Assembly (NCBI GenBank): GCA_002238665.1
Contig: MPMU01000001.1
Location: 25,075-89,074 of the forward strand
DNA length: 64,000 bases
Direction of reading: 5' to 3'
Origin: Gammaproteobacteria bacterium bin55
GTDB taxonomy: Bacteria; Pseudomonadota; Gammaproteobacteria; Pseudomonadales; Azotimanducaceae
The notes under the pieces: model-generated
Seen by the model: only the letters and a program-made list of their open reading frames with translations
What the model was told of the DNA's origin: nothing
The model's database searches: none
Shown here: positions 12,517 through 63,495 of the stretch, in pieces
How the letters are laid out: each line of letters starts with the position of its first letter
How positions within the stretch are numbered: the first letter of the stretch is position 1
Made by a program: the position numbers and the translations under genes

Positions 12517-12633
12517 CGCATTCCAAAATATTGAAGTAATAGTTGTATTACGATGCATATTTCATGATGAGAGGTTGGTTGCATCGGCCAATATTCAACT
12601 CTCATTTGACTGTTAAGTCTGGAGATTCAACGT

Positions 12634-12909
12634 ATGAATAAGTCCGATTTGGTCCGGGAAATGAGTACCGCGGCAAATATTTCCCAAGCTGACGCAGGAA
12701 GCGCACTCAATGCTCTCATTGGTGCAATCTCTGACGCGCTGGCAAACGGGGACAGAGTAAGTATTCCTGATTTTGGTTCGTTCGAGGTACGACACCGAGG
12801 AGCACGTTCAGGTCGCAACCCTCAAACTGGGGAAGCCATAGAAATTAAGGCATCTAAAAATGCCGCTTTTAAGGCAGGAAAAGCCCTGAAGACCAAACTG
12901 AATTCATAG
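12634..12909 (+). CDS. hupB: DNA-binding protein HU
   Basis: 91 aa with MNKSDLV...GFGSFEVRHRGARSGRNPQTGE. Position between clpX and ppiD. Confidence 0.9.
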   Translation: MNKSDLVREMSTAANISQADAGSALNALIGAISDALANGDRVSIPDFGSFEVRHRGARSGRNPQTGEAIEIKASKNAAFKAGKALKTKLNS

Positions 12910-12967
12910 GAAAACCCAACCTCTGGTTTTTCCGCCGTCGCGAAAGTTGCGGACAAAACTTACTTGG

Positions 12968-23483: not shown

Positions 23484-23957
23484 ATGGCTGAACTAACACA
23501 CCTAAACAGTAAAGGCGAAGCCACCATGGTGGATGTCTCTGCCAAGTCGGAGACTCTGCGTATTGCAACCGCAGAAGCGACCGTCCGAGTATCTCAAGAG
23601 ACAGGAGAATTGATTCGTTCGGGTGGGGTAGAAAAGGGCGATGTCTTTTCGGTGGCTCGCATAGCTGGCACGCTCGCGGCAAAGAAGACAAGTGACCTAA
23701 TTCCACTTTGTCATCCTTTACCACTCTCGAGTATCAAAATTGAGTTCAATTGGCAAGATGATTCGACATTGTCCATTAATGTGACCTGTAAGGTTACGAG
23801 TAAGACAGGAGTTGAAATGGAAGCTCTGACTGCTGCAAGCGTTGCTGCACTAACCGTTTATGACATGTGTAAGGCAGTCGATAGAGGGATGCAGATCGAA
23901 AATGTACAACTCACACATAAGTCCGGTGGGAAGTCTGGTAGTTGGCAGCGACAATGA
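23484..23957 (+). CDS. moaC: Cyclic pyranopterin monophosphate synthase
   Basis: 157 aa with motifs [15 protein letters not shown] and [24 protein letters not shown]. Confidence 0.95.
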
Positions 23958-24208
23958 TTATTCGCACTCTGTTTTTTGCATCGCTGCGAGAGAAGATTGG
24001 GATCAGCGAACTCACCGTTGAATTACCTCGTGACGCAACAAGAGATTCTCTTCTTCAAGCATTGCAATCGGAATTGGATGAGTCACGATATGAGACTTTG
24101 TCCACACCACAGGTATCCATCGCGATCAATCAAGAGCTTGTGAAGGGAGAGTTCACGCTTCAGGAGGGAGACGAAGTGGCGTTTCTTCCTCCCATTACTG
24201 GCGGTTAG
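23954..24208 (+). CDS. moaD: Molybdopterin synthase sulfur carrier subunit
   Basis: Small ubiquitin-like protein ending in PPITGG. ATG 23954 overlaps the moaC stop (ATGA). Confidence 0.85.
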
Positions 24209-49322: not shown

Positions 49323-49640
49323 TCTAGACCTCCCAAATCGCGGATTTTCAACAAAGGATTAAAACAGAATTCGCAATCAATGGACAATCTAAGACGACAA
49401 AAATTGTGTCTGTATAGGAAATGAGTTGTTAGATCGCCTGAATAAGACTTTTGGAAATCTGAATTGGTCTTTCACCTTGACCCATTCAGAGTCGTGGATT
49501 ACGTGCTGGAACGAATGCGCTTCTCGCAATCAACCGTGCGATTTCGTTGGACAGGTATTGATCAGTAGCTACGCAAATTGTGAGTCAGATGATCGTCTCG
49601 AGACAAAAATCTTCGTATCACGATGAGGTGCTACAAAGAA

Positions 49641-49666
49641 GAACAGGGGTCATAAGACCCCTGTTC
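49641..49666 (-). terminator. Strong hairpin terminator downstream of the hydratase gene
   Basis: 11-bp perfect stem GAACAGGGGTC/GACCCCTGTTC with a 4-nt loop, followed on the minus strand by TTCTTTGT. A second hairpin lies at 49680-49712. Confidence 0.6.
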
Positions 49667-49843
49667 CATTAGATAGATTAGCGGAGATCTTGTTACTCCG
49701 TAAATCTCCGCTTAGTAAGTTTCAAAATCACCTCCTTCAATTTTCAGCCCAAGTTGAAAGCATTGTACTTAGAAAGAGGAGGGTCAATGAGTCTTAATTT
49801 GATTTACAGAAATCTTCCATGTATCTTCTATCAGGAAGCCATT

Positions 49844-54517: not shown

Positions 54518-54872
54518 TTTGCTTCTCCTAGCTTTGCTTCCTTAAGTCCTCATTACGCGAGAGGGTAATAAGGCAACATATTATCTCACCTTGGAGTAAG
54601 CACTAAGCTCCATTCCCTGAAGGGCGGTCCACTTTATTGAAGCGCTTCGAGCTAGTCCAATCTACGCAAAACGCAGTAGATCGCTTCCCCTAAGGATGGT
54701 AGCCTAGCTCGTCAGTCCTCAGCGTGCGAGTCTGTACTGAATTCGCGCTAATTTATCGTTCGCCGCTACTGTCTTATGCGCGCAAGCAAGGAACATAGAC
54801 GCTGGGATGATCGAGTCCTTATTATTAGCATCTCTCAAAATACCAAAACTACTAACGAAATCAGGAGTACAC

Positions 54873-55343
54873 ATGAGTTCAAATTTGGAAAATGCATACG
54901 AAACCCTCACGGCAAGAATAGGAGAGTCCTCAGCATCTAGTGACTGGTTTGAGGTGACCCAGGGTCGTATCAATGAATTTGCGGAAGTAACTATGGATCA
55001 CCAATGGATCCATATTGATGAAGACCGAGCAAAGTCAGGACCCTTTGGTACCACGATCGCTCACGGTCATCTGACTCTATCGATCATGTCACATTTACCT
55101 AAAACTGTCGTTGAAACAGGTCCCAGATTGGAAGGTCAGAAAATGACAATCAATTACGGCTTCAACAAGGTACGCTTCCCATCTCCAGTGCCTGTAGGCG
55201 CGCGGATTCGAACTACCAGTACACTCAAGACCGTTGAAATCAAGAATGGCATGATCGAAACCATGAATGAAGTCGTTGTCGATGTAGAAGGTCAGGACAA
55301 ACCTTGTTGCGTAGCTGAAAGCCTGGCTCGGATGGTGTTTTAG
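54873..55343 (+). CDS. MaoC-like (R)-specific enoyl-CoA hydratase
   Basis: Motif FAEVTMDHQWIHIDEDRAKSGPFGTTIAHGHL. ATG 54873 is preceded by AGGAG. Confidence 0.8.
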   Translation: MSSNLENAYETLTARIGESSASSDWFEVTQGRINEFAEVTMDHQWIHIDEDRAKSGPFGTTIAHGHLTLSIMSHLPKTVVETGPRLEGQKMTINYGFNKVRFPSPVPVGARIRTTSTLKTVEIKNGMIETMNEVVVDVEGQDKPCCVAESLARMVF

Positions 55344-55386
55344 CTCACGTCGATTCCGCGGCTACCGTGACTAGAAGCGACTTGAC

Positions 55387-56559
55387 ATGACGGGCGAAGT
55401 CACCTATACGAACGTCCGACTATGGGACGGTATCGCAAGTGAGTACTCGGAACACTCAAGTGTTACTGTAAAAGACGGGATTATCCAGAACATAGGTGTA
55501 AATCGTGGTGAAGTCAGGGATTATTCGGGCTTGACCTGTATTCCAGGATTGATCGACGCTCATGTGCATATGACAGTCGATCCCGCGATCCCTGGCATAG
55601 AAGAGCAACTGAAACAGTCAAAATCCGAAATTTGCTCGAAAATGCGCGACCGAGCTAAATCAATGGTGCTCGCAGGAATCACTACAGCACGAGATCTTGG
55701 CGGTGGTGATTGGTTGGAACTGGAACTTAGGGATCAGATTAATAAAAACGAGGTTATCGGGCCTCGATTACTTTGCGCTGGACGACCAATTACTTCCCCG
55801 AAAGGTCATTGCTACTTTTGGCACGGTGAATGTTCAAGTGTTAGCGCTGCCTCGAAGCTGATCGACAAGAACATTCGAAAGGGTGTCGATCTGATCAAGA
55901 TCATGGCTACTGGTGGGGTCTATACCAAAGGTACCGATATTAGTAAGTCTCAGTTTTCCCAACCGGATTTGAGCTCGTTTGTCAACTACGCAAACTCGAA
56001 AGGGTTAGATGTCGCCGCCCACTGTCATGGCACCCAAGGTATTTGCTTCGCCGCATATGCCGGGGTAAATACGATTGAACACTGTTCGTGGCGAAACGCA
56101 GATTTTTCAAAAGGACCTGCAGACTTAGGTGCAGTTCAGCACATGGCACGCGAAAATGTTTATGTTTCGCCGACGATACACTCAGGCTGGGAGAAATTCA
56201 AAGGTAAAGACAATAAGAATCTTGAACAGACTCGAGAAATCATTCGAGAAATGAAAGGACTCGGAGCTGTATTCATAGCATCCACCGATGCTGGAATACC
56301 TAATGTCTATCACAACGACTTGCCGAAGGCTTTACCTGTGTTCGCAGAGTATGCCGATTTTTTACCTCGGGAGGTCTTAAAGTCAGCTACGAGCGTATCA
56401 GCAAAAGCACTTAAAATGTCACACCGTACAGGATCTATCAGACCAGGTCTGGCCGCGGATTTGGTGTTCGTTGAAGGCGATCCTTTGGAGGACCTACGGG
56501 CACTGAAAAACGTAAAACTCGTAGTAGCAACAGGACAGGAATTTTTAGGAGAAAATTGA
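55387..56559 (+). CDS. Amidohydrolase family (metal-dependent) hydrolase
   Basis: PGLIDAHVHM metal-binding motif. 390 aa. Confidence 0.8.
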   Translation: MTGEVTYTNVRLWDGIASEYSEHSSVTVKDGIIQNIGVNRGEVRDYSGLTCIPGLIDAHVHMTVDPAIPGIEEQLKQSKSEICSKMRDRAKSMVLAGITTARDLGGGDWLELELRDQINKNEVIGPRLLCAGRPITSPKGHCYFWHGECSSVSAASKLIDKNIRKGVDLIKIMATGGVYTKGTDISKSQFSQPDLSSFVNYANSKGLDVAAHCHGTQGICFAAYAGVNTIEHCSWRNADFSKGPADLGAVQHMARENVYVSPTIHSGWEKFKGKDNKNLEQTREIIREMKGLGAVFIASTDAGIPNVYHNDLPKALPVFAEYADFLPREVLKSATSVSAKALKMSHRTGSIRPGLAADLVFVEGDPLEDLRALKNVKLVVATGQEFLGEN

Positions 56560-56560
56560 A

Positions 56561-57706
56561 GTGGACTTTCGAGCAGAGACGCGCGCATTTATTGAAGAAC
56601 ATTGTCCTGAGTCGATCCGCAAAGGTGGGTCAGTATCGGACGAAGAGCGTCAAGGATGGCGATCAACCTATTTCGAGAAAGGTTGGTCTGCACCTACTTG
56701 GCCAACCAAGTATGGCGGCGCAGGTCTAGACGGGCTGGATGTCAGAGTTTTACAGGAAGAACTTTCCAGAACAAGAGCTTGGGTACCTGCCGGCGGTATG
56801 GGACTCACCATGATCGGTCCAGCTCTGTTGGAATATGGCACGGAAGAACAGTGTTATGAACACCTACCGAAAATCGTTCGACAGGAAATCGTTTGGTGTC
56901 AAGGTTATAGTGAACCAGGCTCTGGTTCGGACCTAGCGAGTCTTAAAACAAAAGCAGTATCCGATGGTGATGATTACATCATCAACGGTTCCAAAATTTG
57001 GACGTCTGGTGCTGATCAAGCCGACTGGATTTTTTGCCTCGTGCGTACAGACCCCAACGCGCCGAAACACGAAGGTATTACGTTCATTGTTTTCAGCATG
57101 CACTCTCCAGGGGTGACTGTGAAGCCGATCCTTTTGATCAGTGGTGCATCTCCGTTCTGTCAGACATTTTTCGATGATGTACGTGTGCCAAAGCGCAACG
57201 TCATCGGTACGGTCAATAAAGGTTGGACTGTCGCGAAGCGACTTTTGCAATATGAGAGAACATCGATCGGTGGCATGGGATCAGGTGGAGCAACCGGTCC
57301 ACGCGCACGAACGATCGCAGATATTGCGAAAGAATATGTCGGTGAAGAAGACGGCAAGATTGCTGATCCAGAATTCCGTGAGAAAGTCATCAATCACCAA
57401 TTAAACGGTCATGCTTACGGTCTTACTACACGACGGTCTGGAGAGGAAGGAAAAGCTGGTATTGCACCAACTTTCATGTCGTCGTTATTCAAGTACTACG
57501 GCACTGAGCAGAACAAGAACAGACTTGATTTGCTGGTAAATATGCTCGGCCATGACGCACTCGGTTGGACGGGTGAAACCTTTGATCGCGCAAATCTTGG
57601 CGTTACGAGGGAGTGGTTGCGATCAAAAGCTAACTCTATTGAGGGTGGAACCTCAGAAGTGCAGCTGAACATCATTTCAAAACGCATCTTGGGTCTCCCA
57701 GACTAG
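56561..57706 (+). CDS. Acyl-CoA dehydrogenase
   Basis: Motifs GYSEPGSGSDLASLKT and EGGTSEVQLNIISKRILGLP. GTG start 1 nt after the previous stop, with an AGGAG RBS. Confidence 0.85.
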   Translation: MDFRAETRAFIEEHCPESIRKGGSVSDEERQGWRSTYFEKGWSAPTWPTKYGGAGLDGLDVRVLQEELSRTRAWVPAGGMGLTMIGPALLEYGTEEQCYEHLPKIVRQEIVWCQGYSEPGSGSDLASLKTKAVSDGDDYIINGSKIWTSGADQADWIFCLVRTDPNAPKHEGITFIVFSMHSPGVTVKPILLISGASPFCQTFFDDVRVPKRNVIGTVNKGWTVAKRLLQYERTSIGGMGSGGATGPRARTIADIAKEYVGEEDGKIADPEFREKVINHQLNGHAYGLTTRRSGEEGKAGIAPTFMSSLFKYYGTEQNKNRLDLLVNMLGHDALGWTGETFDRANLGVTREWLRSKANSIEGGTSEVQLNIISKRILGLPD

Positions 57707-57785
57707 CCCAGTTTCTTTTTTTGTGTCGGAATGTCAGGCAACCCATTCCTTGCTTGGCGATTCCGATTTCACCTAGGGACTTTGC

Positions 57786-59018
57786 ATGGTTCCGATAACG
57801 TCGAATGTCCTTGAGTCGTTAAGACAACGATCTCACTTCGGTTTTCTGATCGTGTGTAGCATCGCCGTGCCTATTGGCATGTCGGTGTGGTCATCTTTGA
57901 TCAATAACTATGCAGTCGAGCAGATCGGGTTCACAGGCCTGGAAAACGGCATTATGCAAAGCTTGCGTGAGGTGCCTGGATTTCTCGCGTTTACTGCCGT
58001 TTTCATTTTGTTGGTCTGTCGTGAACAGACCTTTGTAATCGTATTTCTCGCAGTTTTCGGTCTCGGAATAACCTTGACGGGATTCTTCCCAACCGTCTAT
58101 GGGTTGTATTTCACGGTGGTCCTGATGTCGATTGGATTCCATTATTTGGAAACTGGTCGTCAATCTCTTGCGCTCCAGTGGTTACCAAAAGGTGATGCAC
58201 CAAGGTTGCTTGGCAAGCTGATTTCAATTGGTGCAATGGCTTCGTTTATCACCTACGGACTGCTCTGGGTGATCCTCGAATTGACATCCATCGACTATTA
58301 CCTCGTATATCTGATCGGTGGAGGTGCTGTATTGGTGTGTGCATTGGTTCTCAAGGCACACTTCCCTAGGATCGAGTCTGAAGTCGTGCAGCGGAAGCAA
58401 ATCATCCTACGCTCAAGGTATTGGCTCTACTATGCATTGACTTTCTTCAGTGGCGCTCGACGCCAGATTTACGTCGCCTTCGCAGGATTCCTTCTCGTTG
58501 AGAAATTTGGCTACAGTGTCGAGAATATGGCATTGCTATTGTTGATCAACCATGTGGTCAACTATCTTTTCGCCGAGAGAATGGGCGCGTGGATTGGAAG
58601 AGTCAGTGAGAGAACCGCCTTGACCGTCGAATACATAGGACTCATTGGTGTATTCGTTTCATATGCTTTCGTCGAATCTGCTTTACTTGCGGGTGGACTC
58701 TATGTCATCGACCATTTCTTCTTCGTATTGGCAATTGCGATCAAGACTTACTTCCAGAAGATTGCGGACCCTGCTGACATTGCTTCTACAGTAAGTGTTT
58801 CATTCACAATCAACCACATGGCGGCCGTTGTGATCCCTGCATTACTCGGGATTGCTTGGTTAACTTCACACAGTATTGTTTTCTTGATCGGCGCGGCTTT
58901 TGCTTTCTGCTCTTTGGTGCTTGCACGATTTGTTCCTCGCAATCCCACGCAAGGACACGAGACTTTACTTTCGCCCAGAATCGGTCCACCAGAAGTCTTG
59001 GGAGAGGTCACAAGGTAG
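57786..59018 (+). CDS. MFS-type transporter
   Basis: 410 aa with about 12 hydrophobic helices arranged 6+6 around a central basic loop. Confidence 0.65.
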   Translation: MVPITSNVLESLRQRSHFGFLIVCSIAVPIGMSVWSSLINNYAVEQIGFTGLENGIMQSLREVPGFLAFTAVFILLVCREQTFVIVFLAVFGLGITLTGFFPTVYGLYFTVVLMSIGFHYLETGRQSLALQWLPKGDAPRLLGKLISIGAMASFITYGLLWVILELTSIDYYLVYLIGGGAVLVCALVLKAHFPRIESEVVQRKQIILRSRYWLYYALTFFSGARRQIYVAFAGFLLVEKFGYSVENMALLLLINHVVNYLFAERMGAWIGRVSERTALTVEYIGLIGVFVSYAFVESALLAGGLYVIDHFFFVLAIAIKTYFQKIADPADIASTVSVSFTINHMAAVVIPALLGIAWLTSHSIVFLIGAAFAFCSLVLARFVPRNPTQGHETLLSPRIGPPEVLGEVTR

Positions 59019-59093
59019 GAAATCTACCCAGCAGAATTCTCCCTTGCATATACACTAACCAGCCGATTTCGCACCTTTTGTTGAATTGAAAAA

Positions 59094-60278
59094 ATGTCAG
59101 AGCTACCTTTAGCTGGATTAAAAGTACTTGATCTAACCATTGCGCGAGCTGGTCCAACCGCGGTCCGTCTGTTAACAGATTGGGGCGCTGACGTCTTCAA
59201 GCTAGAACCACCCCCATCGGATCCAGGTTCGATCACTGGAGGGAGACATGGACCAGACGAGCAGAATCTTCATCGAAATAAACGAGGCATCTGTCTTAAT
59301 CTAAAGAATGAAGCAGGGTACGAAGCTTTTCTGCAAATGGTTGAGCAAGTCGATATTTTCGTTGAAAACTTCCGCGCTCCAGTAAAAGCAAAGCTCAAAA
59401 TTGACTACGAAACACTTAGTGCGATCAATCCTCGGTTGATTTATGCGAGTATTTCCGGTTTCGGTCAAGAAGGGCCATATTCTGATCGTGCAGGCGTCGA
59501 TCAAATCGTCCAGGGCATGAGCGGCTTGATGTCCATTACTGGTCAGAAAGGTGGAGAGCCAACTCGAGCAGGGATTGCTATCAGCGATACGACCGCCGGA
59601 ATGTTCTTGGCTCAAGGCATCCTATTAGCTCTCATCAGTCGAACTACGAGCGGCAAAGGCCAATGGGTTCACACATCGTTGCTGGAAGGGATGCTATGTA
59701 AGTTGGATTTTCAGGGTGCACGCTACACCATGAGAGGCGATATTCCTCAGACACAAGGTAACAATCACCCCACTAGTTTTCCGATGGGAACGTTCAAGTG
59801 TAAGGACGGTTACATCAATCTTGCCGCTCCAACCGACAGGATGTGGTACCGCTTTTTGGATGCAATTGACGATAATGAATTGCGTTCAGACCCGTTATTC
59901 AGTTCTGTTCGTAACCGAATGAAAAACAAAGATAAATTAGAGACTTCTATGAACTCAGTACTTCAGAAGTTCGATGTTGCGACGCTTGTCGAACGAGTCA
60001 ATAAGGTAGGTGTACCGTGTGGCCCTATATTCAATGTAGGTGAAGCATTTGAAGACACACAAGCAAAATTTCTGAAGATGACAAAACCGGCAAAGCATCG
60101 GACGATAGGGGAGGTAAACCTAATTCGTTCACCGATTAATATGTCAGCGCATCCGCATACAGAAACTTTCGATTCAGCTGCGCCTGATCCAGGTGAGCAC
60201 ACAGCTGAGGTGCTTGCCGAATTTGGATTTGTGCAAGAGCAAATAGAAGAGCTCTATTCCGTAGGTGCAGTGAGCTAA
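59094..60278 (+). CDS. Family III CoA-transferase (CaiB/BaiF type)
   Basis: Motifs LAGLKVLDLTIARAGPTAVRLLTDWGADVFKLEPP and GFGQEGPY. 394 aa. Confidence 0.9.
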   Translation: MSELPLAGLKVLDLTIARAGPTAVRLLTDWGADVFKLEPPPSDPGSITGGRHGPDEQNLHRNKRGICLNLKNEAGYEAFLQMVEQVDIFVENFRAPVKAKLKIDYETLSAINPRLIYASISGFGQEGPYSDRAGVDQIVQGMSGLMSITGQKGGEPTRAGIAISDTTAGMFLAQGILLALISRTTSGKGQWVHTSLLEGMLCKLDFQGARYTMRGDIPQTQGNNHPTSFPMGTFKCKDGYINLAAPTDRMWYRFLDAIDDNELRSDPLFSSVRNRMKNKDKLETSMNSVLQKFDVATLVERVNKVGVPCGPIFNVGEAFEDTQAKFLKMTKPAKHRTIGEVNLIRSPINMSAHPHTETFDSAAPDPGEHTAEVLAEFGFVQEQIEELYSVGAVS

Positions 60279-60303: not shown

Positions 60304-60340
60304 AAAAAAAGCACCGAATGACTTACTGTCACACGGTGCT
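60304..60340 (-). terminator. Rho-independent terminator ending the minus-strand RraA-like/redoxin/UGSC operon
   Basis: On the minus strand: AGCACCG..TGAC..GTCA..CGGTGCT stem followed by TTTTTTT (A7 at 60304-60310). Confidence 0.6.
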
Positions 60341-60385
60341 CAGTAATTCGCAAACTCTTGTGATTGCTTAGATCAACACTTTCAC

Positions 60386-60925
60386 CTAGTTTCCGTTGCC
60401 GCCTTCGTTAGCAACCAAAGCATCAACGACGAGCGACAAACACTCATCTGCTTTTGATTGCATCTCTTCGTCGGTAGCATCCTGAATTGGATGAGGGACA
60501 AAGACACAAGGTGCACTCTTCAACCCCAGCGCTGTTGCTTGAGTTGCTGCTGCTGTTTTAAATTCGCTCGAGGCGATTGTTACTGCTGGAATCCCTTGGA
60601 TTTCAAACCATACCGTATCATGCAAACTGCACGTAGTACAGGATCCTCAGTCAGCGAGAGCTTCGACGACAAGGTCGGCTTGGCTCTTTATCTCCTTACG
60701 AAGCTGATCTGGAGCAGGTTTTGTGAAAGTGGGTTTCGCATATCTGGTCACCTCAACTTTCGGGTACTTCTCACTTAATAGATGCTCAAGACGATCTAGA
60801 AGTACGTTACCTCTAGGTTTCCTGATATCTAATAACGCTAACCGACCTTTTAACTCAGATGTTCTCGATGCCAATTGGCGTTCGATTGGTCTGCGTTCGT
60901 CAGTCGGGTCCAAAATGGTGGTCAT
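60386..60925 (-). CDS. UGSC-family predicted selenoprotein (in-frame TGA at 60647-60649 read as Sec)
   Basis: Track ORFs 60647..60925 and 60386..60625 share one frame and are separated only by a TGA. Read-through gives ...VVEALAD-U-GSCTTCSLHDTVW. There is a single AGGAGG RBS (60933-60938) with an ATG, and a single terminator. Confidence 0.7.
60608..60641 (-). promoter_or_regulatory. SECIS-like stem-loop immediately 3' of the in-frame UGA
   Basis: mRNA CUGUACUACGUGCAGUUUGCAUGAUACGGUAUGG starts 5 nt after the UGA. It folds to about 13-14 bp interrupted by a bulged A and a 2-nt bulge. The apical loop contains GUU about 19 nt from the UGA. Confidence 0.5.
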
Positions 60926-60952: not shown

Positions 60953-62506
60953 TTATGACTCAATTTTCTTGGAGACTGGGATGGAGCCCATAGGTCCACT
61001 TGCCCAGCCATGGAATGCTGCGGAGAATTTTCCTGCATCTGACCCCGCAACAAAGATATGTATGTTATCTACCGAGGAAAACTTGGGCACCTTCGTTTGC
61101 CTCTTTTCTTCAGACATTTGCTCGTAAAGTGCTCTAGGTATTCCTACTCCACTGAAATCGTCCTCGACTAACTCCTGCGGTAGTACGGCACTCTTTTCCT
61201 GAATTCCTTCCTTTACATCCTGCTTCGAGTAGTTTTGTGTAGCTAGCGTGTCAACGTGTTCCGGACAAATCACGAGGATAGTGTCACCATTTCGATGTGC
61301 TCGCACATGGTGGATAGCTCGCATGGACAGCGCAAAACTCCCGATTAACTGTTCAGCGGATCTAGATGTCTGATCGATAATCTGCATCGGTCCACCTGAC
61401 ATAGCAAACACTGAGACAACAGAATCATCTTTTTGGAATCCCTTCTCGACGTGGTAGGGGTCCCAGTTGCTACGTTCTTCCCACTCAGCGAAACACATTG
61501 TGTATTTCATTGGGTTTCCGAGGGTTGATCTTTCGGTACCGCCTGGTTGAGCACCACCAATATTTCGGATCGCCAATCTAACGGCTCGACCGATCGCGGC
61601 ATTTGTACGCGTGCCTTGCCCTAAGGCTGACATTTTCATATTGACACCGATTTCGTGGCGAATCGGTCCATTCAACACCATGACTGGTGTAGCTCCCATC
61701 GTGGTTGCGAAGACACCGTGACAGTTGAACTCATCATTGCAAATAGCTTCAATCGTTGAGATTACTACCGGCAGGTATTCTGGCTTGCAACCTGCTAGTA
61801 CGGCATTCACCGCAATTTTCTCAACCGTTGCCGGCGCTAAGTTCGGAGGGATAGTCGCAACGAGTTCCTGTGGTTCACGGTTTGTTCCCGATAGCATCCG
61901 AATGACTCGTTCGGGAGTTGGTGGGACAACCGGTAGTCCATCCGTGAATCCTTGATCAAACATGAATTCATGGATGTCATCCTGTGAAGCGATTTCGAGT
62001 CGCCTTGCCCGAAGAGGACTATTCTCAGATTCCGCGCGGAGTCGATCTTGGATTATGGGATCCTGTGTAAGTGATCCACAACCGGGTCGCCATTCCGGTA
62101 ATTGGTCCCAATCGATCTCTGTGGATGGAAAGTGTTTCTCGAAAAACGTTCGCCATTCCTGTCTCTCAAATCCAATTAACTCATCTAATTTTTCACCGTT
62201 TGAATCCGCTAAGAAACAGTGGGGAACCGTTTCGAGATCGTAAGCGAATGAGACCTTTAGTATTGAGTCATCTAAAAGGGGAGCAGTAAGCTCATGATTC
62301 TTTACAAGAATCTCGTTGCCTTCCTGCGTTTGACCCGGTACCAAGACTCGAGTGCCAGAACTATCGTGAACCTTTTGAATGAGAGGAAGGACTAGATTAC
62401 AAGTAGGGCAATCCTCTTTGACAAAGCAGACAAAAGTTGCTTGGTTGTCAGGGAAGTGATGATCAGAACCATTCTGGTCAACGAGTTGAAAAGCTGGTAG
62501 TTCCAT
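60953..62506 (-). CDS. Redoxin/thioredoxin-like (CPTC) domain fused to a large uncharacterised domain
   Basis: N-terminal roughly 130 aa are TlpA/redoxin-like (FVCFVKEDCPTCNLVLPLI). The remaining roughly 380 aa (DGLPVVPPT..., NAAIGRAVRLAIRNIGG) match no family I can name. Confidence 0.6.
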   Translation of the reverse strand: MELPAFQLVDQNGSDHHFPDNQATFVCFVKEDCPTCNLVLPLIQKVHDSSGTRVLVPGQTQEGNEILVKNHELTAPLLDDSILKVSFAYDLETVPHCFLADSNGEKLDELIGFERQEWRTFFEKHFPSTEIDWDQLPEWRPGCGSLTQDPIIQDRLRAESENSPLRARRLEIASQDDIHEFMFDQGFTDGLPVVPPTPERVIRMLSGTNREPQELVATIPPNLAPATVEKIAVNAVLAGCKPEYLPVVISTIEAICNDEFNCHGVFATTMGATPVMVLNGPIRHEIGVNMKMSALGQGTRTNAAIGRAVRLAIRNIGGAQPGGTERSTLGNPMKYTMCFAEWEERSNWDPYHVEKGFQKDDSVVSVFAMSGGPMQIIDQTSRSAEQLIGSFALSMRAIHHVRAHRNGDTILVICPEHVDTLATQNYSKQDVKEGIQEKSAVLPQELVEDDFSGVGIPRALYEQMSEEKRQTKVPKFSSVDNIHIFVAGSDAGKFSAAFHGWASGPMGSIPVSKKIES

Positions 62507-62510
62507 CGGA

Positions 62511-63200
62511 TTAGTGTATCTCTGCTGAATCGCCCCAAGCTTTACGCAGGCGAGCCATATTGAATCCTTCTTCTTGCGCTGCGTCGATGATTACCCGTTC
62601 CTTCCGAGCGATCGCGGCGGCGGCTTCAGGCACGTCTGCTGCAACATCCTTCGGAATGATTACTGCACCATGTTGATCTGCGTGAACTAATTCTGTATCG
62701 CTCACTCGCATACCTGACACATTGATGTCTATTCCGTATGCAACGACATGAACAAACGCGTGTGATGGGCCAACTCGGTCAGCCAGCATCTGAAATCCTG
62801 GAGCTATATCGGGGAGATCTCTGACACTGCCATCGGTGACCAATCCCAAGCAACCGAGACCTTTGTGGATATTGCTGTTCACTTCACCCCAAAACGAACC
62901 ATATCCTCGTGCCTCGCCATCTAAGTCTTGGATAAGAATGATTGCTGGTTTTGGTCCTTCATCGATATATGCATAGTAATCTTGAGAGACGTTTTTGGTG
63001 TCAGCCGGGTGCGCAGCTCGGATGGTTGCAGTTCGCGCGAATCCCACCATGCTACCTAGTTCCGGCCGAGTACACACCAGTGGTTGTGTTGTATAACCAA
63101 AGCCCCTTCGTTGAGGTACGACGGTTTCCAACGCGTTGCAAACGGTAGGTGTATCTAGCTTAGTGAGTTCGGCTAAAAGAGCCGCATCAATTTCAGACAT
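62511..63200 (-). CDS. RraA-like / HMG-CHA aldolase-oxaloacetate decarboxylase family protein
   Basis: Motifs TPTVCNALE, WGEVNSNIHKGLGCLGLVTDGSVRDL and VHADQHGAVIIP. ATG 63200 is preferred; an in-frame TTG lies at 63221. Confidence 0.8.
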   Translation of the reverse strand: MSEIDAALLAELTKLDTPTVCNALETVVPQRRGFGYTTQPLVCTRPELGSMVGFARTATIRAAHPADTKNVSQDYYAYIDEGPKPAIILIQDLDGEARGYGSFWGEVNSNIHKGLGCLGLVTDGSVRDLPDIAPGFQMLADRVGPSHAFVHVVAYGIDINVSGMRVSDTELVHADQHGAVIIPKDVAADVPEAAAAIARKERVIIDAAQEEGFNMARLRKAWGDSAEIH

Positions 63201-63279
63201 ATAACTGTATCCTGCTGGCAATGAAACTTGATTCCGACAGGGTTACTAACCCTTCGGCGAAAAAAAGATTGTAGGAGTT

Positions 63280-63320: not shown

Positions 63321-63395
63321 GGGTGTTTAGCTCAGTGGGAGAGCAATGGCCTTACAAGCCATAGGTCGTAGGTTCAAGTCCTACAACACCCACCA
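63321..63395 (+). tRNA. tRNA-Val (anticodon UAC)
   Basis: Acceptor GGGTGTT/AACACCC, anticodon loop CTTACAA, T-loop TTCAAGT, encoded CCA. Confidence 0.9.
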
Positions 63396-63418
63396 ATTCC
63401 TCACCGTGTTTCTAGGTA

Positions 63419-63495
63419 GGAGCGGTAGTTCAGCTGGTTAGAATACTGGCCTGTCACGCCAGTGGTCGCGGGTTCGAGTCCCGTCCGCTCCGCCA
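63419..63495 (+). tRNA. tRNA-Asp (anticodon GUC)
   Basis: Acceptor GGAGCGG/CCGCTCC, anticodon loop CTGTCAC, T-loop TTCGAGT, encoded CCA. Confidence 0.9.

What the first reader, a model, noticed from the sequence alone, without database searches (positions are those of the whole stretch)
60386..60925. In-frame TGA splits one gene at a U-G-S-C-T-T-C motif: predicted selenocysteine recoding
Track ORFs 60647..60925(-) and 60386..60625(-) are in the same reading frame and are separated only by the TGA at 60647-60649. Reading through gives ...DLVVEALAD-[UGA]-GSCTTCSLHDTVWFEIQ, that is UxxCxxC. The UGSC motif names a (seleno)protein family first reported from marine metagenome selenoproteome surveys. 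Only the upstream half has a canonical ATG with an AGGAGG RBS. The downstream half begins with a TTG and has no RBS. A single terminator follows the pair. TGA is a genuine stop elsewhere in the window (trpB, trpA, moaC), so this is site-specific recoding and not a variant genetic code. Standard gene callers would report two fragments or a pseudogene.
Basis: partly seen in the sequence, partly recalled or inferred. Interest (0 to 1): 0.8.

Follow-up and report, generated by a model that had tools for sequence, protein, structure and literature searches.

The report
UGSC-family selenoprotein gene with SECIS
The two "fragments" are one gene for a member of the known UGSC selenoprotein family, whose internal TGA is almost certainly read as selenocysteine, so the finding is correct but ordinary.

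Summary
Window 60386..60925(-) is one 179-codon frame with a single internal TGA (60647-60649), and it reads ...EALAD-U-GSCTTC.

The read-through product is a full-length member of the UGSC family. It scores 166 bits on NCBIfam NF041046 (cutoff 125) and matches Pfam PF24696 in one stretch across the TGA.

All 80 genomic relatives that were fetched, plus a near-identical metagenome contig, carry TGA at the same column. More distant homologues carry Cys there.

A 6-bp hairpin follows the UGA at nt 17-31, with G23-U24 in its loop, as in the E. coli fdhF SECIS. It pairs in all 77 distinct sequences, and its codons are frozen at synonymous sites (AGT 82/82, TGC 82/82).

The frame after the TGA is under strong purifying selection. 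TGA is an ordinary stop for 16 of 42 long ORFs in the window.

In 20 alphaproteobacterial relatives, tRNA-Sec lies next to the module, and selB, selA and sometimes selD lie nearby.

Not testable here: whether this genome has selABCD. The window has none of them.

Additional results: a 517-aa thioredoxin-fusion gene is almost always directly upstream. The family also shows weak similarity to GrdB around the UxxCxxC motif.

The family has been known since the ocean metagenome surveys, so interest is low.

The parts
60386..60925 (-). Complete CDS of a UGSC-family selenoprotein: 179 aa, with ATG at 60925, Sec codon at 60649-60647 and TAG stop at 60388-60386.
   Evidence: It is a single frame. It scores 166.4 bits on NF041046 against a cutoff of 125, and matches PF24696 at positions 3-171 of 172 in one stretch. 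An AlphaFold2 model of the closest full-length homologue gives a single domain with pLDDT 90.
60647..60649 (-). In-frame UGA, predicted to be the selenocysteine codon (residue 93) of the motif U-G-S-C-T-T-C.
   Evidence: TGA occupies this column in 82 of 83 sequences: 80 GTDB genomes, contig L002 and the window. The exception is L001. Distant homologues have Cys at the same column.
60619..60633 (-). SECIS-type hairpin at nt 17-31 counted from the U of UGA. The stem is CGUGCA/UGCAUG and the loop is G23 U24 U25 (60627-60625).
   Evidence: It pairs in 100% of 77 distinct sequences, and the one variable pair is GC 40, GU 35, AU 2. Its codons are frozen at synonymous sites: ACG 80/82, TGC 82/82, AGT 82/82, NTG 82/82. 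Two Cys-form lineages have lost it. Its position and the G23/U24 loop match the E. coli fdhF SECIS as described in PMC8659212.
60933..60939 (-). Shine-Dalgarno sequence AAGGAGG, 7 nt upstream of the ATG.
   Evidence: Read directly from the sequence.
60304..60341 (-). Intrinsic terminator (hairpin plus U7 tract) that ends the operon.
   Evidence: dG is -20.7 kcal/mol with z = -5.0, and none of 200 shuffles fold as well.
60953..62506 (-). Conserved partner gene of 517 aa. It has an N-terminal TlpA/ResA-like thioredoxin domain (CPTC motif) and a C-terminal domain of about 385 aa with no family model. Its stop lies 27 nt upstream of the UGSC ATG.
   Evidence: It lies directly upstream of UGSC in 72-75 of the related loci and also in Cys-form loci. 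Foldseek matches the N-terminal domain to ResA with target-normalised TM-scores of about 0.8. The C-terminal domain has no Pfam, NCBIfam or PDB sequence hit.
62511..63221 (-). RraA-like aldolase/decarboxylase-family gene, 4 nt upstream of the partner gene. It is probably the first gene of the same transcription unit in this gammaproteobacterial lineage.
   Evidence: It matches PF03737 with E = 7e-14. It is syntenic in 11 related loci, including L001 and L002.

Best explanation
Window 60386..60925(-) is one gene for a 179-aa UGSC-family selenoprotein. The UGA at 60649-60647 is decoded as selenocysteine.

Proposed recoding mechanism: a short mRNA hairpin 13 nt downstream of the UGA (nt 17-31, apical G23-U24) acts as the bacterial SECIS. 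It recruits SelB-GTP carrying Sec-tRNA(Sec) to the ribosome while the UGA is in the A site, so translation continues into ...GSCTTCSLHD... instead of stopping.

Proposed protein function: the product is a small flavodoxin-like alpha/beta domain. Sec93 sits at the N-terminal cap of a helix, followed by Cys96 and Cys99, which gives the UxxCxxC motif. It most likely acts as the redox-active selenol/thiol centre of a two-protein module. The other protein is the 517-aa thioredoxin-fusion encoded directly upstream, and electrons probably arrive through a thioredoxin-reductase/thioredoxin-type chain.

Shown here: the single gene, family membership, TGA conservation, the conserved hairpin with frozen synonymous sites, translation of the post-UGA frame, linkage to the partner gene, and linkage to sel genes in relatives.

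Inferred only: actual selenium insertion in this organism, SelB binding to this hairpin, the redox chemistry and the substrate.
For: 1. One domain spans the UGA. NF041046 scores 166.4 bits against a cutoff of 125, and PF24696 matches positions 3-171 of 172, each as one stretch.

2. TGA is at the same column in all 80 GTDB genome loci (Gamma- and Alphaproteobacteria, Chloroflexota, Binatota and others), in L002 and in the window. At least 600 such loci exist in the collection. Cys is at this column in P0004, P0006, P0015, P0029 and P0037.

3. The hairpin at nt 17-31 is paired in all 77 distinct sequences. When position 18 is A, position 30 is U.

4. Synonymous sites are frozen only inside the hairpin. 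Ser+7 is AGT in 82/82, whereas Ser+2 uses five codons. Cys+6 is TGC in 82/82, whereas Cys+3 is TGT 46 and TGC 36. Thr+5 is ACG in 80/82, whereas Thr+4 uses all four codons.

5. Two Cys-form lineages (L084, L085) lack the hairpin.

6. Downstream of the TGA, the proportion of nonsynonymous differences is 0.07-0.18 while synonymous differences are near saturation at 0.56-0.87. The frame is therefore translated.

7. TGA ends 16 of 42 long ORFs in the window, including trpB, trpA and moaC, so the genetic code is standard.

8. In 20 alphaproteobacterial loci, tRNA-Sec (anticodon TCA) lies next to the module: about 100-370 nt upstream of the partner gene on the same strand in 19 of them, and on the opposite strand in L049. 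SelB (TIGR00475, 246.5 bits, cutoff 242) is present in 19 loci, SelA (TIGR00474, 587 bits) in 9, and SelD-like genes in 4.

9. The literature lists UGSC-containing proteins as an established predicted selenoprotein family, with 255 Sec forms against 21 Cys forms in the GOS survey (PMC2398784, PMC13188914).
Against: No tRNA-Sec, selA, selB or selD is present in the 64-kb window, and the rest of the genome could not be searched.

The hairpin gives no statistical covariation signal, because 5 of its 6 pairs never vary.

Its folding energy in the window alone is unremarkable (-9.5 kcal/mol, z = -0.6).

It lacks the bulged U17 of the E. coli fdhF SECIS.

No Rfam family covers it.

There is no experimental evidence for selenium in any member of this family as far as the papers read here state (PMC13188914).
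Confidence: 0.9

Rival explanations
1. This is a pseudogene or a sequencing error: a Cys-type (TGC/TGT) UGSC gene that acquired a nonsense mutation or a base-calling error, so only a 92-aa fragment is made.
For: A single base separates TGA from TGC or TGT. Isolated variants exist at this column, namely GGA in L001 and TGG in L087. No Sec machinery is seen in the window.
Against: The same TGA is found in 82 of 83 sequences across several phyla. It is also present in an independent metagenome assembly of a near-identical strain. The downstream half is intact, keeps every family-invariant residue, and is under strong purifying selection. The hairpin is conserved at synonymous sites.
Confidence: 0.03
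2. These are two separate small genes: a 92-aa protein ending at the TGA and a 79-aa protein starting at TTG 60625.
For: ORF callers report it this way. The database holds many calls of about 100 aa that end in ...EALAD, and L002 carries a 92-aa call.
Against: One HMM stretch and one predicted alpha/beta domain span the junction. Full-length Cys forms exist. The supposed TTG start is codon +8, which is CTG in 13 of 82 relatives, has no ribosome-binding site and lies inside the hairpin. The seven residues between the TGA and the TTG (GSCTTCS) are invariant.
Confidence: 0.01
3. The UGA is read through without selenocysteine. In this scenario the organism has lost the Sec machinery, a near-cognate tRNA (Trp, Cys or Arg) reads the UGA at low efficiency, and the gene is a recent relic.
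For: The Sec machinery could not be verified for this genome. Rare relatives show non-Sec and non-Cys codons at the column, which suggests occasional escape from Sec: L001 has GGA with a frameshifted partner gene, and L087 has TGG.
Against: The hairpin and the UGA are both intact here, and in every gammaproteobacterial relative fetched except L001. Lineages that switched to Cys lose the hairpin. A relic would be expected to decay or convert to TGC/TGT. The partner gene and the rest of the operon are intact in the window.
Confidence: 0.05

Closest known systems
UGSC family (seleno)protein (NCBIfam NF041046, Pfam PF24696), the 'UGSC-containing protein' of the Sargasso Sea and GOS selenoproteome surveys
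   Same: It scores above the curated cutoffs over the full length. It has the same U-G-S-C motif at the same column, the same size of about 170-180 aa, and the same predominance of Sec forms over Cys forms (PMC2398784).
   Different: Nothing essential differs, so this is simply another member. The results added here to what the papers read describe are the near-obligate upstream 517-aa thioredoxin-fusion partner, the sel-gene neighbourhood in Alphaproteobacteria, and a predicted flavodoxin-like fold rather than the thioredoxin-like fold suggested earlier.
E. coli fdhF-type bacterial SECIS element
   Same: It is a stem-loop inside the coding sequence just 3' of the UGA. The upper hairpin ends at nt 31, and G23 and U24 sit in the apical loop, at the same distance from the UGA as in fdhF (PMC8659212).
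   Different: There is no bulged U17. The stem starts at nt 17 rather than nt 15, and the loop has 3 nt (GUN) rather than 4. SelB binding has not been tested.
GrdB/GrdF/GrdH/PrdB 'selenoprotein B' subunits of the glycine, sarcosine, betaine and D-proline reductases
   Same: It has the same UxxCxxC selenocysteine motif (PMC6778437, PMC13188914). These are the only non-UGSC NCBIfam families that UGSC members hit. The hits fall on the Sec-bearing region, profile positions about 334-411 of 431; 4 of 9 members hit, with best E = 4e-4. Thioredoxin-system genes are associated, as in grd operons: a thioredoxin domain in the partner, and trxB upstream in Cys-form locus L084.
   Different: The scores are far below the family cutoffs (12.6-16 bits against 65-800). 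The protein has 179 aa rather than about 430 and lacks the N-terminal two-thirds of GrdB. No grdA, grdC, grdD or grdE genes are in the neighbourhood. The hosts are aerobic or marine Proteobacteria and Chloroflexota rather than amino-acid-fermenting anaerobes.
TlpA/ResA-family thiol-disulfide oxidoreductases (this applies to the partner protein, not to UGSC)
   Same: Residues 1-130 of the 517-aa partner have a CxxC (CPTC) thioredoxin fold. Foldseek matches it to ResA with target-normalised TM-scores of about 0.8, and NCBI annotates homologues as TlpA-family.
   Different: No signal peptide or membrane anchor was looked for. The domain is fused to an uncharacterised domain of about 385 aa that has no family model. 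Sequence scores are below the family cutoffs.

Membership tests
UGSC family (NF041046 / PF24696) | Score above the curated whole-protein cutoff, with the match covering the full profile in one stretch. | tested here: met
   NF041046 scores 166.4 bits against a cutoff of 125 (profile positions 4-146 of 147). PF24696 scores 166.4 bits against 25 (positions 1-171 of 172).
UGSC family (NF041046 / PF24696) | A [U/C]-G-S-C motif at the conserved column after ...EALAD. | tested here: met
   The window has EALAD-U-GSCTTC. Relatives have TGA or Cys at the same column.
Bacterial selenoprotein gene (Sec recoding) | An in-frame UGA aligned with Cys or Sec in homologues, with a conserved and translated sequence downstream. 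| tested here: met
   TGA is at the column in 82 of 83 sequences and Cys in distant homologues. Downstream, nonsynonymous differences are 0.07-0.18 against synonymous differences of 0.56-0.87.
Bacterial selenoprotein gene (Sec recoding) | A SECIS stem-loop immediately 3' of the UGA with a conserved G (and U) in the apical loop at the right distance. | tested here: met
   A 6-bp hairpin lies at nt 17-31 with loop G23 U24 N25. It pairs in 100% of 77 sequences, and synonymous sites are frozen inside it. Caveat: the evidence is conservation rather than covariation, and the single-sequence folding energy is not exceptional.
Bacterial selenoprotein gene (Sec recoding) | selA, selB, selC (tRNA-Sec) and selD are present in the same genome. 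| not testable with these tools
   The window has none (ARAGORN and Rfam; tblastn with SelA, SelB and SelD probes). The source genome was not in the searchable collections, where the best relative is 71% identical. In 20 relatives the sel genes lie beside the module.
Bacterial selenoprotein gene (Sec recoding) | Selenium demonstrated in the polypeptide. | not testable with these tools
   This needs 75Se labelling or mass spectrometry.
GrdB/PrdB selenoprotein B family (TIGR01917, TIGR01918, NF040794) | Score above the curated cutoff over a protein of about 430 aa. | tested here: not met
   Scores are 14.8 bits against 602, 12.6 against 65.45 and 16.1 against 800. Only profile positions about 334-411 are matched.
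GrdB/PrdB selenoprotein B family (TIGR01917, TIGR01918, NF040794) | A UxxCxxC motif at the selenocysteine. | tested here: met
   The window has U93-G-S-C96-T-T-C99. The motif definition comes from PMC6778437 and PMC13188914.
GrdB/PrdB selenoprotein B family (TIGR01917, TIGR01918, NF040794) | Operon context with grdE/prdA, grdA and grdC/grdD. | tested here: not met
   The neighbours are an RraA-like gene, the thioredoxin-fusion partner, a family III CoA-transferase, an MFS transporter, an acyl-CoA dehydrogenase, an amidohydrolase and a MaoC-like gene.
Thioredoxin-fold selenoproteins (suggested for UGSC in PMC2398784) | A thioredoxin fold with the redox motif at the N-terminus of helix 1. | tested here: not met
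   The AlphaFold2 model (pLDDT 90.2) is a five-strand parallel alpha/beta domain. The best Foldseek matches in the PDB are TIR, flavodoxin, WrbA, azoreductase and lumazine synthase, with query-normalised TM-scores of 0.36-0.49. No thioredoxin appears in the top 50. This is prediction-level evidence only. The Sec does sit at a helix N-cap after a strand, as in CxxC proteins.

The most novel reading that the evidence does not exclude
UGSC and the 517-aa thioredoxin-fusion protein encoded directly upstream may form a previously undescribed two-component, thioredoxin-coupled, selenium-dependent reductase. In this reading, its catalytic Sec module is a free-standing relative of the UxxCxxC domain of GrdB-type reductases, operating in aerobic aquatic Proteobacteria and Chloroflexota. 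In many Alphaproteobacteria it would be the cargo for which a compact selD/selA/selB/tRNA-Sec island is kept. In this window it would serve the adjacent organic-acid or acyl-CoA catabolic cluster.
Probability: 0.3. Interest if true: 0.5.

Novelty: new member of a known kind. Interest (0 to 1): 0.2.

Why it matters
For annotation, the two fragments should be merged into one CDS with a selenocysteine translation exception at 60647-60649. The dozens of database entries of about 100 aa that end in ...EALAD show how often generic gene callers truncate this family.

Biologically, the gene marks the organism as a probable selenocysteine user.

The family is among the most abundant aquatic selenoproteins and still has no known function. 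Three results here give concrete handles for working that out:
- the near-obligate partner gene;
- the sel-gene linkage in relatives;
- the GrdB-like UxxCxxC similarity.

These belong to the family as a whole, not to this window.

Tried and rejected
- Other selenoprotein genes in the window. I scanned all six frames for TGA codons flanked by open frames. The only other candidates were 23484-24143, which is MoaC with a true stop, and 49426-49797 and 12627-12956, which have non-coding-looking translations. All were rejected.
- Covariation test of the hairpin. It was uninformative because 5 of 6 pairs are invariant, and 112 of 500 shuffles reach the observed score. The case rests on conservation at synonymous sites instead.
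- Single-sequence folding of the 42 nt after the UGA. The energy is not exceptional (z = -0.6). The lower stem seen in the window is broken in most relatives, because position 33 is C in 77 of 82, so it is not part of the conserved element.
- Rfam. No SECIS family matched, at either the gathering or the E-value threshold.
- PDB sequence search for UGSC and for the partner's C-terminal domain. Nothing was found beyond the thioredoxin domain.
- Foldseek. The UGSC model gave only generic flavodoxin-like matches with query-normalised TM-scores below 0.5. The partner model's top 50 hits were almost all matches to its thioredoxin domain, so the C-terminal domain remains unplaced.
- Pfam and NCBIfam at E up to 10 for the partner's C-terminal domain. 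There were zero hits.
- Identifying the source genome or its sel genes. The exact partner protein is only on a 7.6-kb metagenome contig. The GTDB scan's best relative is 71% identical. P0121, which is 81% identical, could not be located.
- Structure prediction of the window's own read-through protein. The closest full-length homologue P0001 (70% identical) was modelled instead.
- The GOS paper's 'Unknown_1' domain fused to UGSC. It could not be compared with the partner protein because the supplementary alignment is an image.

Full report
**Observation**

On the minus strand, window 60925..60386 is a single reading frame. It runs ATG, 92 codons, TGA (60649-60647), 86 codons, TAG. Read-through gives ...DLVVEALAD-U-GSCTTCSLHDTVWFEIQ..., 179 aa in all.

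AAGGAGG lies 7 nt upstream of the ATG.

The 'second ORF' starts at a TTG (60625) that is simply codon +8 after the UGA. It has no ribosome-binding site, and the same codon is CTG in 13 of 82 relatives.

A strong terminator follows the gene at 60341-60304, with dG -20.7 kcal/mol and z = -5.0.

TGA is a normal stop in this organism:
- It ends trpB at 903-905, trpA at 1700-1702 and moaC at 23955-23957.
- It ends 16 of 42 ORFs of at least 200 aa.

An independent metagenome contig from a near-identical strain (L002) carries the same TGA, so this is not an assembly error.

**What it is**

With Cys substituted for the stop, the product scores 166.4 bits on NCBIfam NF041046, 'UGSC family (seleno)protein' (cutoff 125). 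It scores 166.4 bits on Pfam PF24696. Each is a single match that spans the TGA.

A protein search returned two kinds of hit:
- dozens of gene calls of about 98-105 aa that all end in ...EALAD, which are truncations at the same codon;
- full-length homologues with Cys at that column (P0004, P0006, P0015, P0029, P0037).

A scan of one genome per GTDB species found at least 600 loci. The best 80 come from Gamma- and Alphaproteobacteria, Chloroflexota/Dehalococcoidia, Binatota and others, and every one carries TGA at the column.

The only exceptions seen were singletons:
- L001 has GGA, and its partner gene is also frameshifted.
- L087 has TGG.

**Recoding signal**

Counting from the U of UGA, nt 17-31 form a hairpin CGUGCA-GUN-UGCAYG. 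It is paired in all 77 distinct sequences. The single variable pair is G-C in 40, G-U in 35 and A-U in 2, and is never broken.

Five of the six pairs never vary, so the covariation statistics say nothing.

The informative signal is at synonymous sites. Among residues that are invariant as amino acids, the comparison is:

| Inside the hairpin | Outside the hairpin |
|---|---|
| Ser+7: AGT in 82/82 | Ser+2: five different codons |
| Cys+6: TGC in 82/82 | Cys+3: TGT 46, TGC 36 |
| Thr+5: ACG in 80/82 | Thr+4: all four codons |

Codon +8 is always NTG.

Two independent Cys-form lineages (L084, L085) have lost the hairpin. A third (L086) still has it, which fits a recent Sec-to-Cys change.

The position matches the E. 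coli fdhF SECIS, where the upper stem-loop spans nt 15-31 with G23 and U24 in the apical loop (review PMC8659212). Here there is no bulged U17 and the loop has 3 nt.

In isolation the window's hairpin is not thermodynamically unusual. No Rfam model covers it.

**Translation beyond the UGA**

Against 14 relatives, the 58 codons after the TGA show nonsynonymous differences of 0.07-0.18 and synonymous differences of 0.56-0.87. This is stronger constraint than in the upstream half.

**Sec machinery**

The window contains no tRNA-Sec and no SelA, SelB or SelD homologue. The source genome was not retrievable, so the key genomic test remains open.

Indirect support is strong. In 20 alphaproteobacterial relatives a tRNA-Sec gene (anticodon TCA) lies next to the module. 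In 19 of them it sits about 100-370 nt upstream of the partner gene on the same strand, and in L049 it is on the opposite strand. These relatives include Hyphomonas, Phenylobacterium, Caulobacteraceae, Rhodobacteraceae and Sulfitobacter sp. M05. Nearby genes are:

| Gene | Model and score | Loci |
|---|---|---|
| selB | TIGR00475, 246.5 bits (cutoff 242) | 19 |
| selA | TIGR00474, 587 bits | 9 |
| selD-like | tblastn with an E. coli SelD probe recalled from memory, E < 1e-10 | 4 |

**Context and likely function**

A 517-aa gene (60953-62506) ends 27 nt upstream of the UGSC start.

- A homologue of it lies directly upstream of UGSC in 72-75 of the related loci, and also in Cys-form loci.
- Its first 130 residues or so are a TlpA/ResA-like thioredoxin domain with a CPTC motif. 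Foldseek gives target-normalised TM-scores of about 0.8.
- The remaining 385 residues or so have conserved Cys and His residues but no Pfam, NCBIfam or PDB match.
- The family has more than 6,300 database members.
- In the Cys-form locus L084, a thioredoxin reductase gene (TIGR01292, 384 bits) sits immediately upstream of the pair.

An AlphaFold2 model of the closest full-length UGSC homologue (pLDDT 90) shows a flavodoxin-like alpha/beta domain. The Sec position sits at the N-cap of helix 94-109, directly after strand 85-91. Foldseek finds only generic flavodoxin and TIR-type matches with query-normalised TM-scores below 0.5, and no thioredoxin fold.

The only non-UGSC NCBIfam models that UGSC members touch are the four GrdB-type selenoprotein B models. 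All hits fall on the region carrying their UxxCxxC Sec motif. Four of 9 members hit, with best E = 4e-4, far below the cutoffs (motif per PMC6778437 and PMC13188914).

My inference is that UGSC is the selenol/thiol redox centre of a thioredoxin-coupled two-protein reductase. The substrate is unknown.

In this gammaproteobacterial lineage the pair is preceded by an RraA-like gene. It faces a cluster made up of a CoA-transferase, an MFS transporter, an acyl-CoA dehydrogenase, an amidohydrolase and a MaoC-like gene, which is syntenic with L001.

**Comparison with what is known, and verdict**

The 'UGSC-containing protein' was described in the Sargasso Sea and GOS selenoproteome surveys as one of the most abundant aquatic selenoprotein families, with 255 Sec forms against 21 Cys forms (PMC2398784). 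It is listed with NF041046 in current reviews, function unknown (PMC9312934, PMC13188914). It was also used as a marker in studies of Sec codon reassignment (PMC5330540).

But this is a new member of a known kind, and a selenoprotein-aware annotation pipeline should annotate it. I score interest at 0.2.

The more novel reading, which the evidence does not exclude, concerns the family rather than this locus. It is a GrdB-like, thioredoxin-coupled two-component selenoenzyme with a dedicated sel island in some lineages.

Noticed in passing
window 60953-62506 (-): This 517-aa protein has a TlpA/ResA-like thioredoxin domain (CPTC) fused to a domain of about 385 aa with no Pfam, NCBIfam or PDB sequence match. 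It has more than 6,300 homologues, mostly annotated only as 'TlpA family disulfide reductase'. It is encoded directly upstream of UGSC in about 90% of related loci across phyla.
   Followed up: partly
L020, L027, L029, L031, L032, L038, L040-L043, L045, L046, L049, L051, L056, L058, L059, L062, L065, L069 (about positions 560-2360): In 20 alphaproteobacterial relatives, tRNA-Sec lies next to the partner-UGSC pair: about 100-370 nt upstream on the same strand in 19, and on the opposite strand in L049. selB, selA and sometimes selD lie alongside. Together they form a compact selenocysteine island whose adjacent selenoprotein gene is UGSC.
   Followed up: partly
L001:10277-10279 and L001:8515-9967; L087:603-605: The closest full-length homologue (P0001, 70% identical) has GGA (Gly) in place of the Sec codon. 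Its partner gene is frameshifted near residue 264 and its CoA-transferase call is split. This is either an error-prone long-read assembly or a decaying cluster. L087 has TGG (Trp) with the hairpin intact.
   Followed up: partly
L084:5283, L085:831, L086:1229: Among Cys-form UGSC genes, two lineages have lost the SECIS hairpin. One (L086) retains CGTGCAGTGTGCACG, which suggests a recent Sec-to-Cys conversion. In L084 a thioredoxin reductase gene directly precedes the pair.
   Followed up: partly
window 54807-60278 (+): A convergent catabolic cluster lies here: a MaoC-like hydratase, an amidohydrolase (Xaa-Pro dipeptidase-like), a PimC-like acyl-CoA dehydrogenase, an MFS transporter and a family III CoA-transferase. 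It is syntenic with L001 and partly with other gammaproteobacterial relatives. It could hint at the pathway the selenoprotein module serves.
   Followed up: partly
window 63321-63495 (+): A tRNA-Val(TAC) and tRNA-Asp(GTC) pair lies next to the RraA-like gene. The same arrangement is found in L001 and L002. In Alphaproteobacteria, tRNA-Sec occupies the corresponding position.
   Followed up: no
L042 (CAMDAC010000011.1): This contig is labelled Candidatus Sulfopaludibacter (Acidobacteriota). It carries a 63-nt stretch after the UGA that is identical to Hyphomonas sp. BRH_c22 (L029), together with the same tRNA-Sec layout. The contig is probably mis-binned.
   Followed up: no
window 23484-24143 (+): The moaC ORF ends at a TGA followed by 61 open codons in frame. 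The downstream translation looks non-coding, so this is a true stop and not a second Sec site.
   Followed up: yes
window 35574-36887 (+): serS (seryl-tRNA synthetase, TIGR00414, 526 bits) is in the window. It charges tRNA-Sec with serine in Sec users, but it is universal and so is not evidence for the Sec trait.
   Followed up: no
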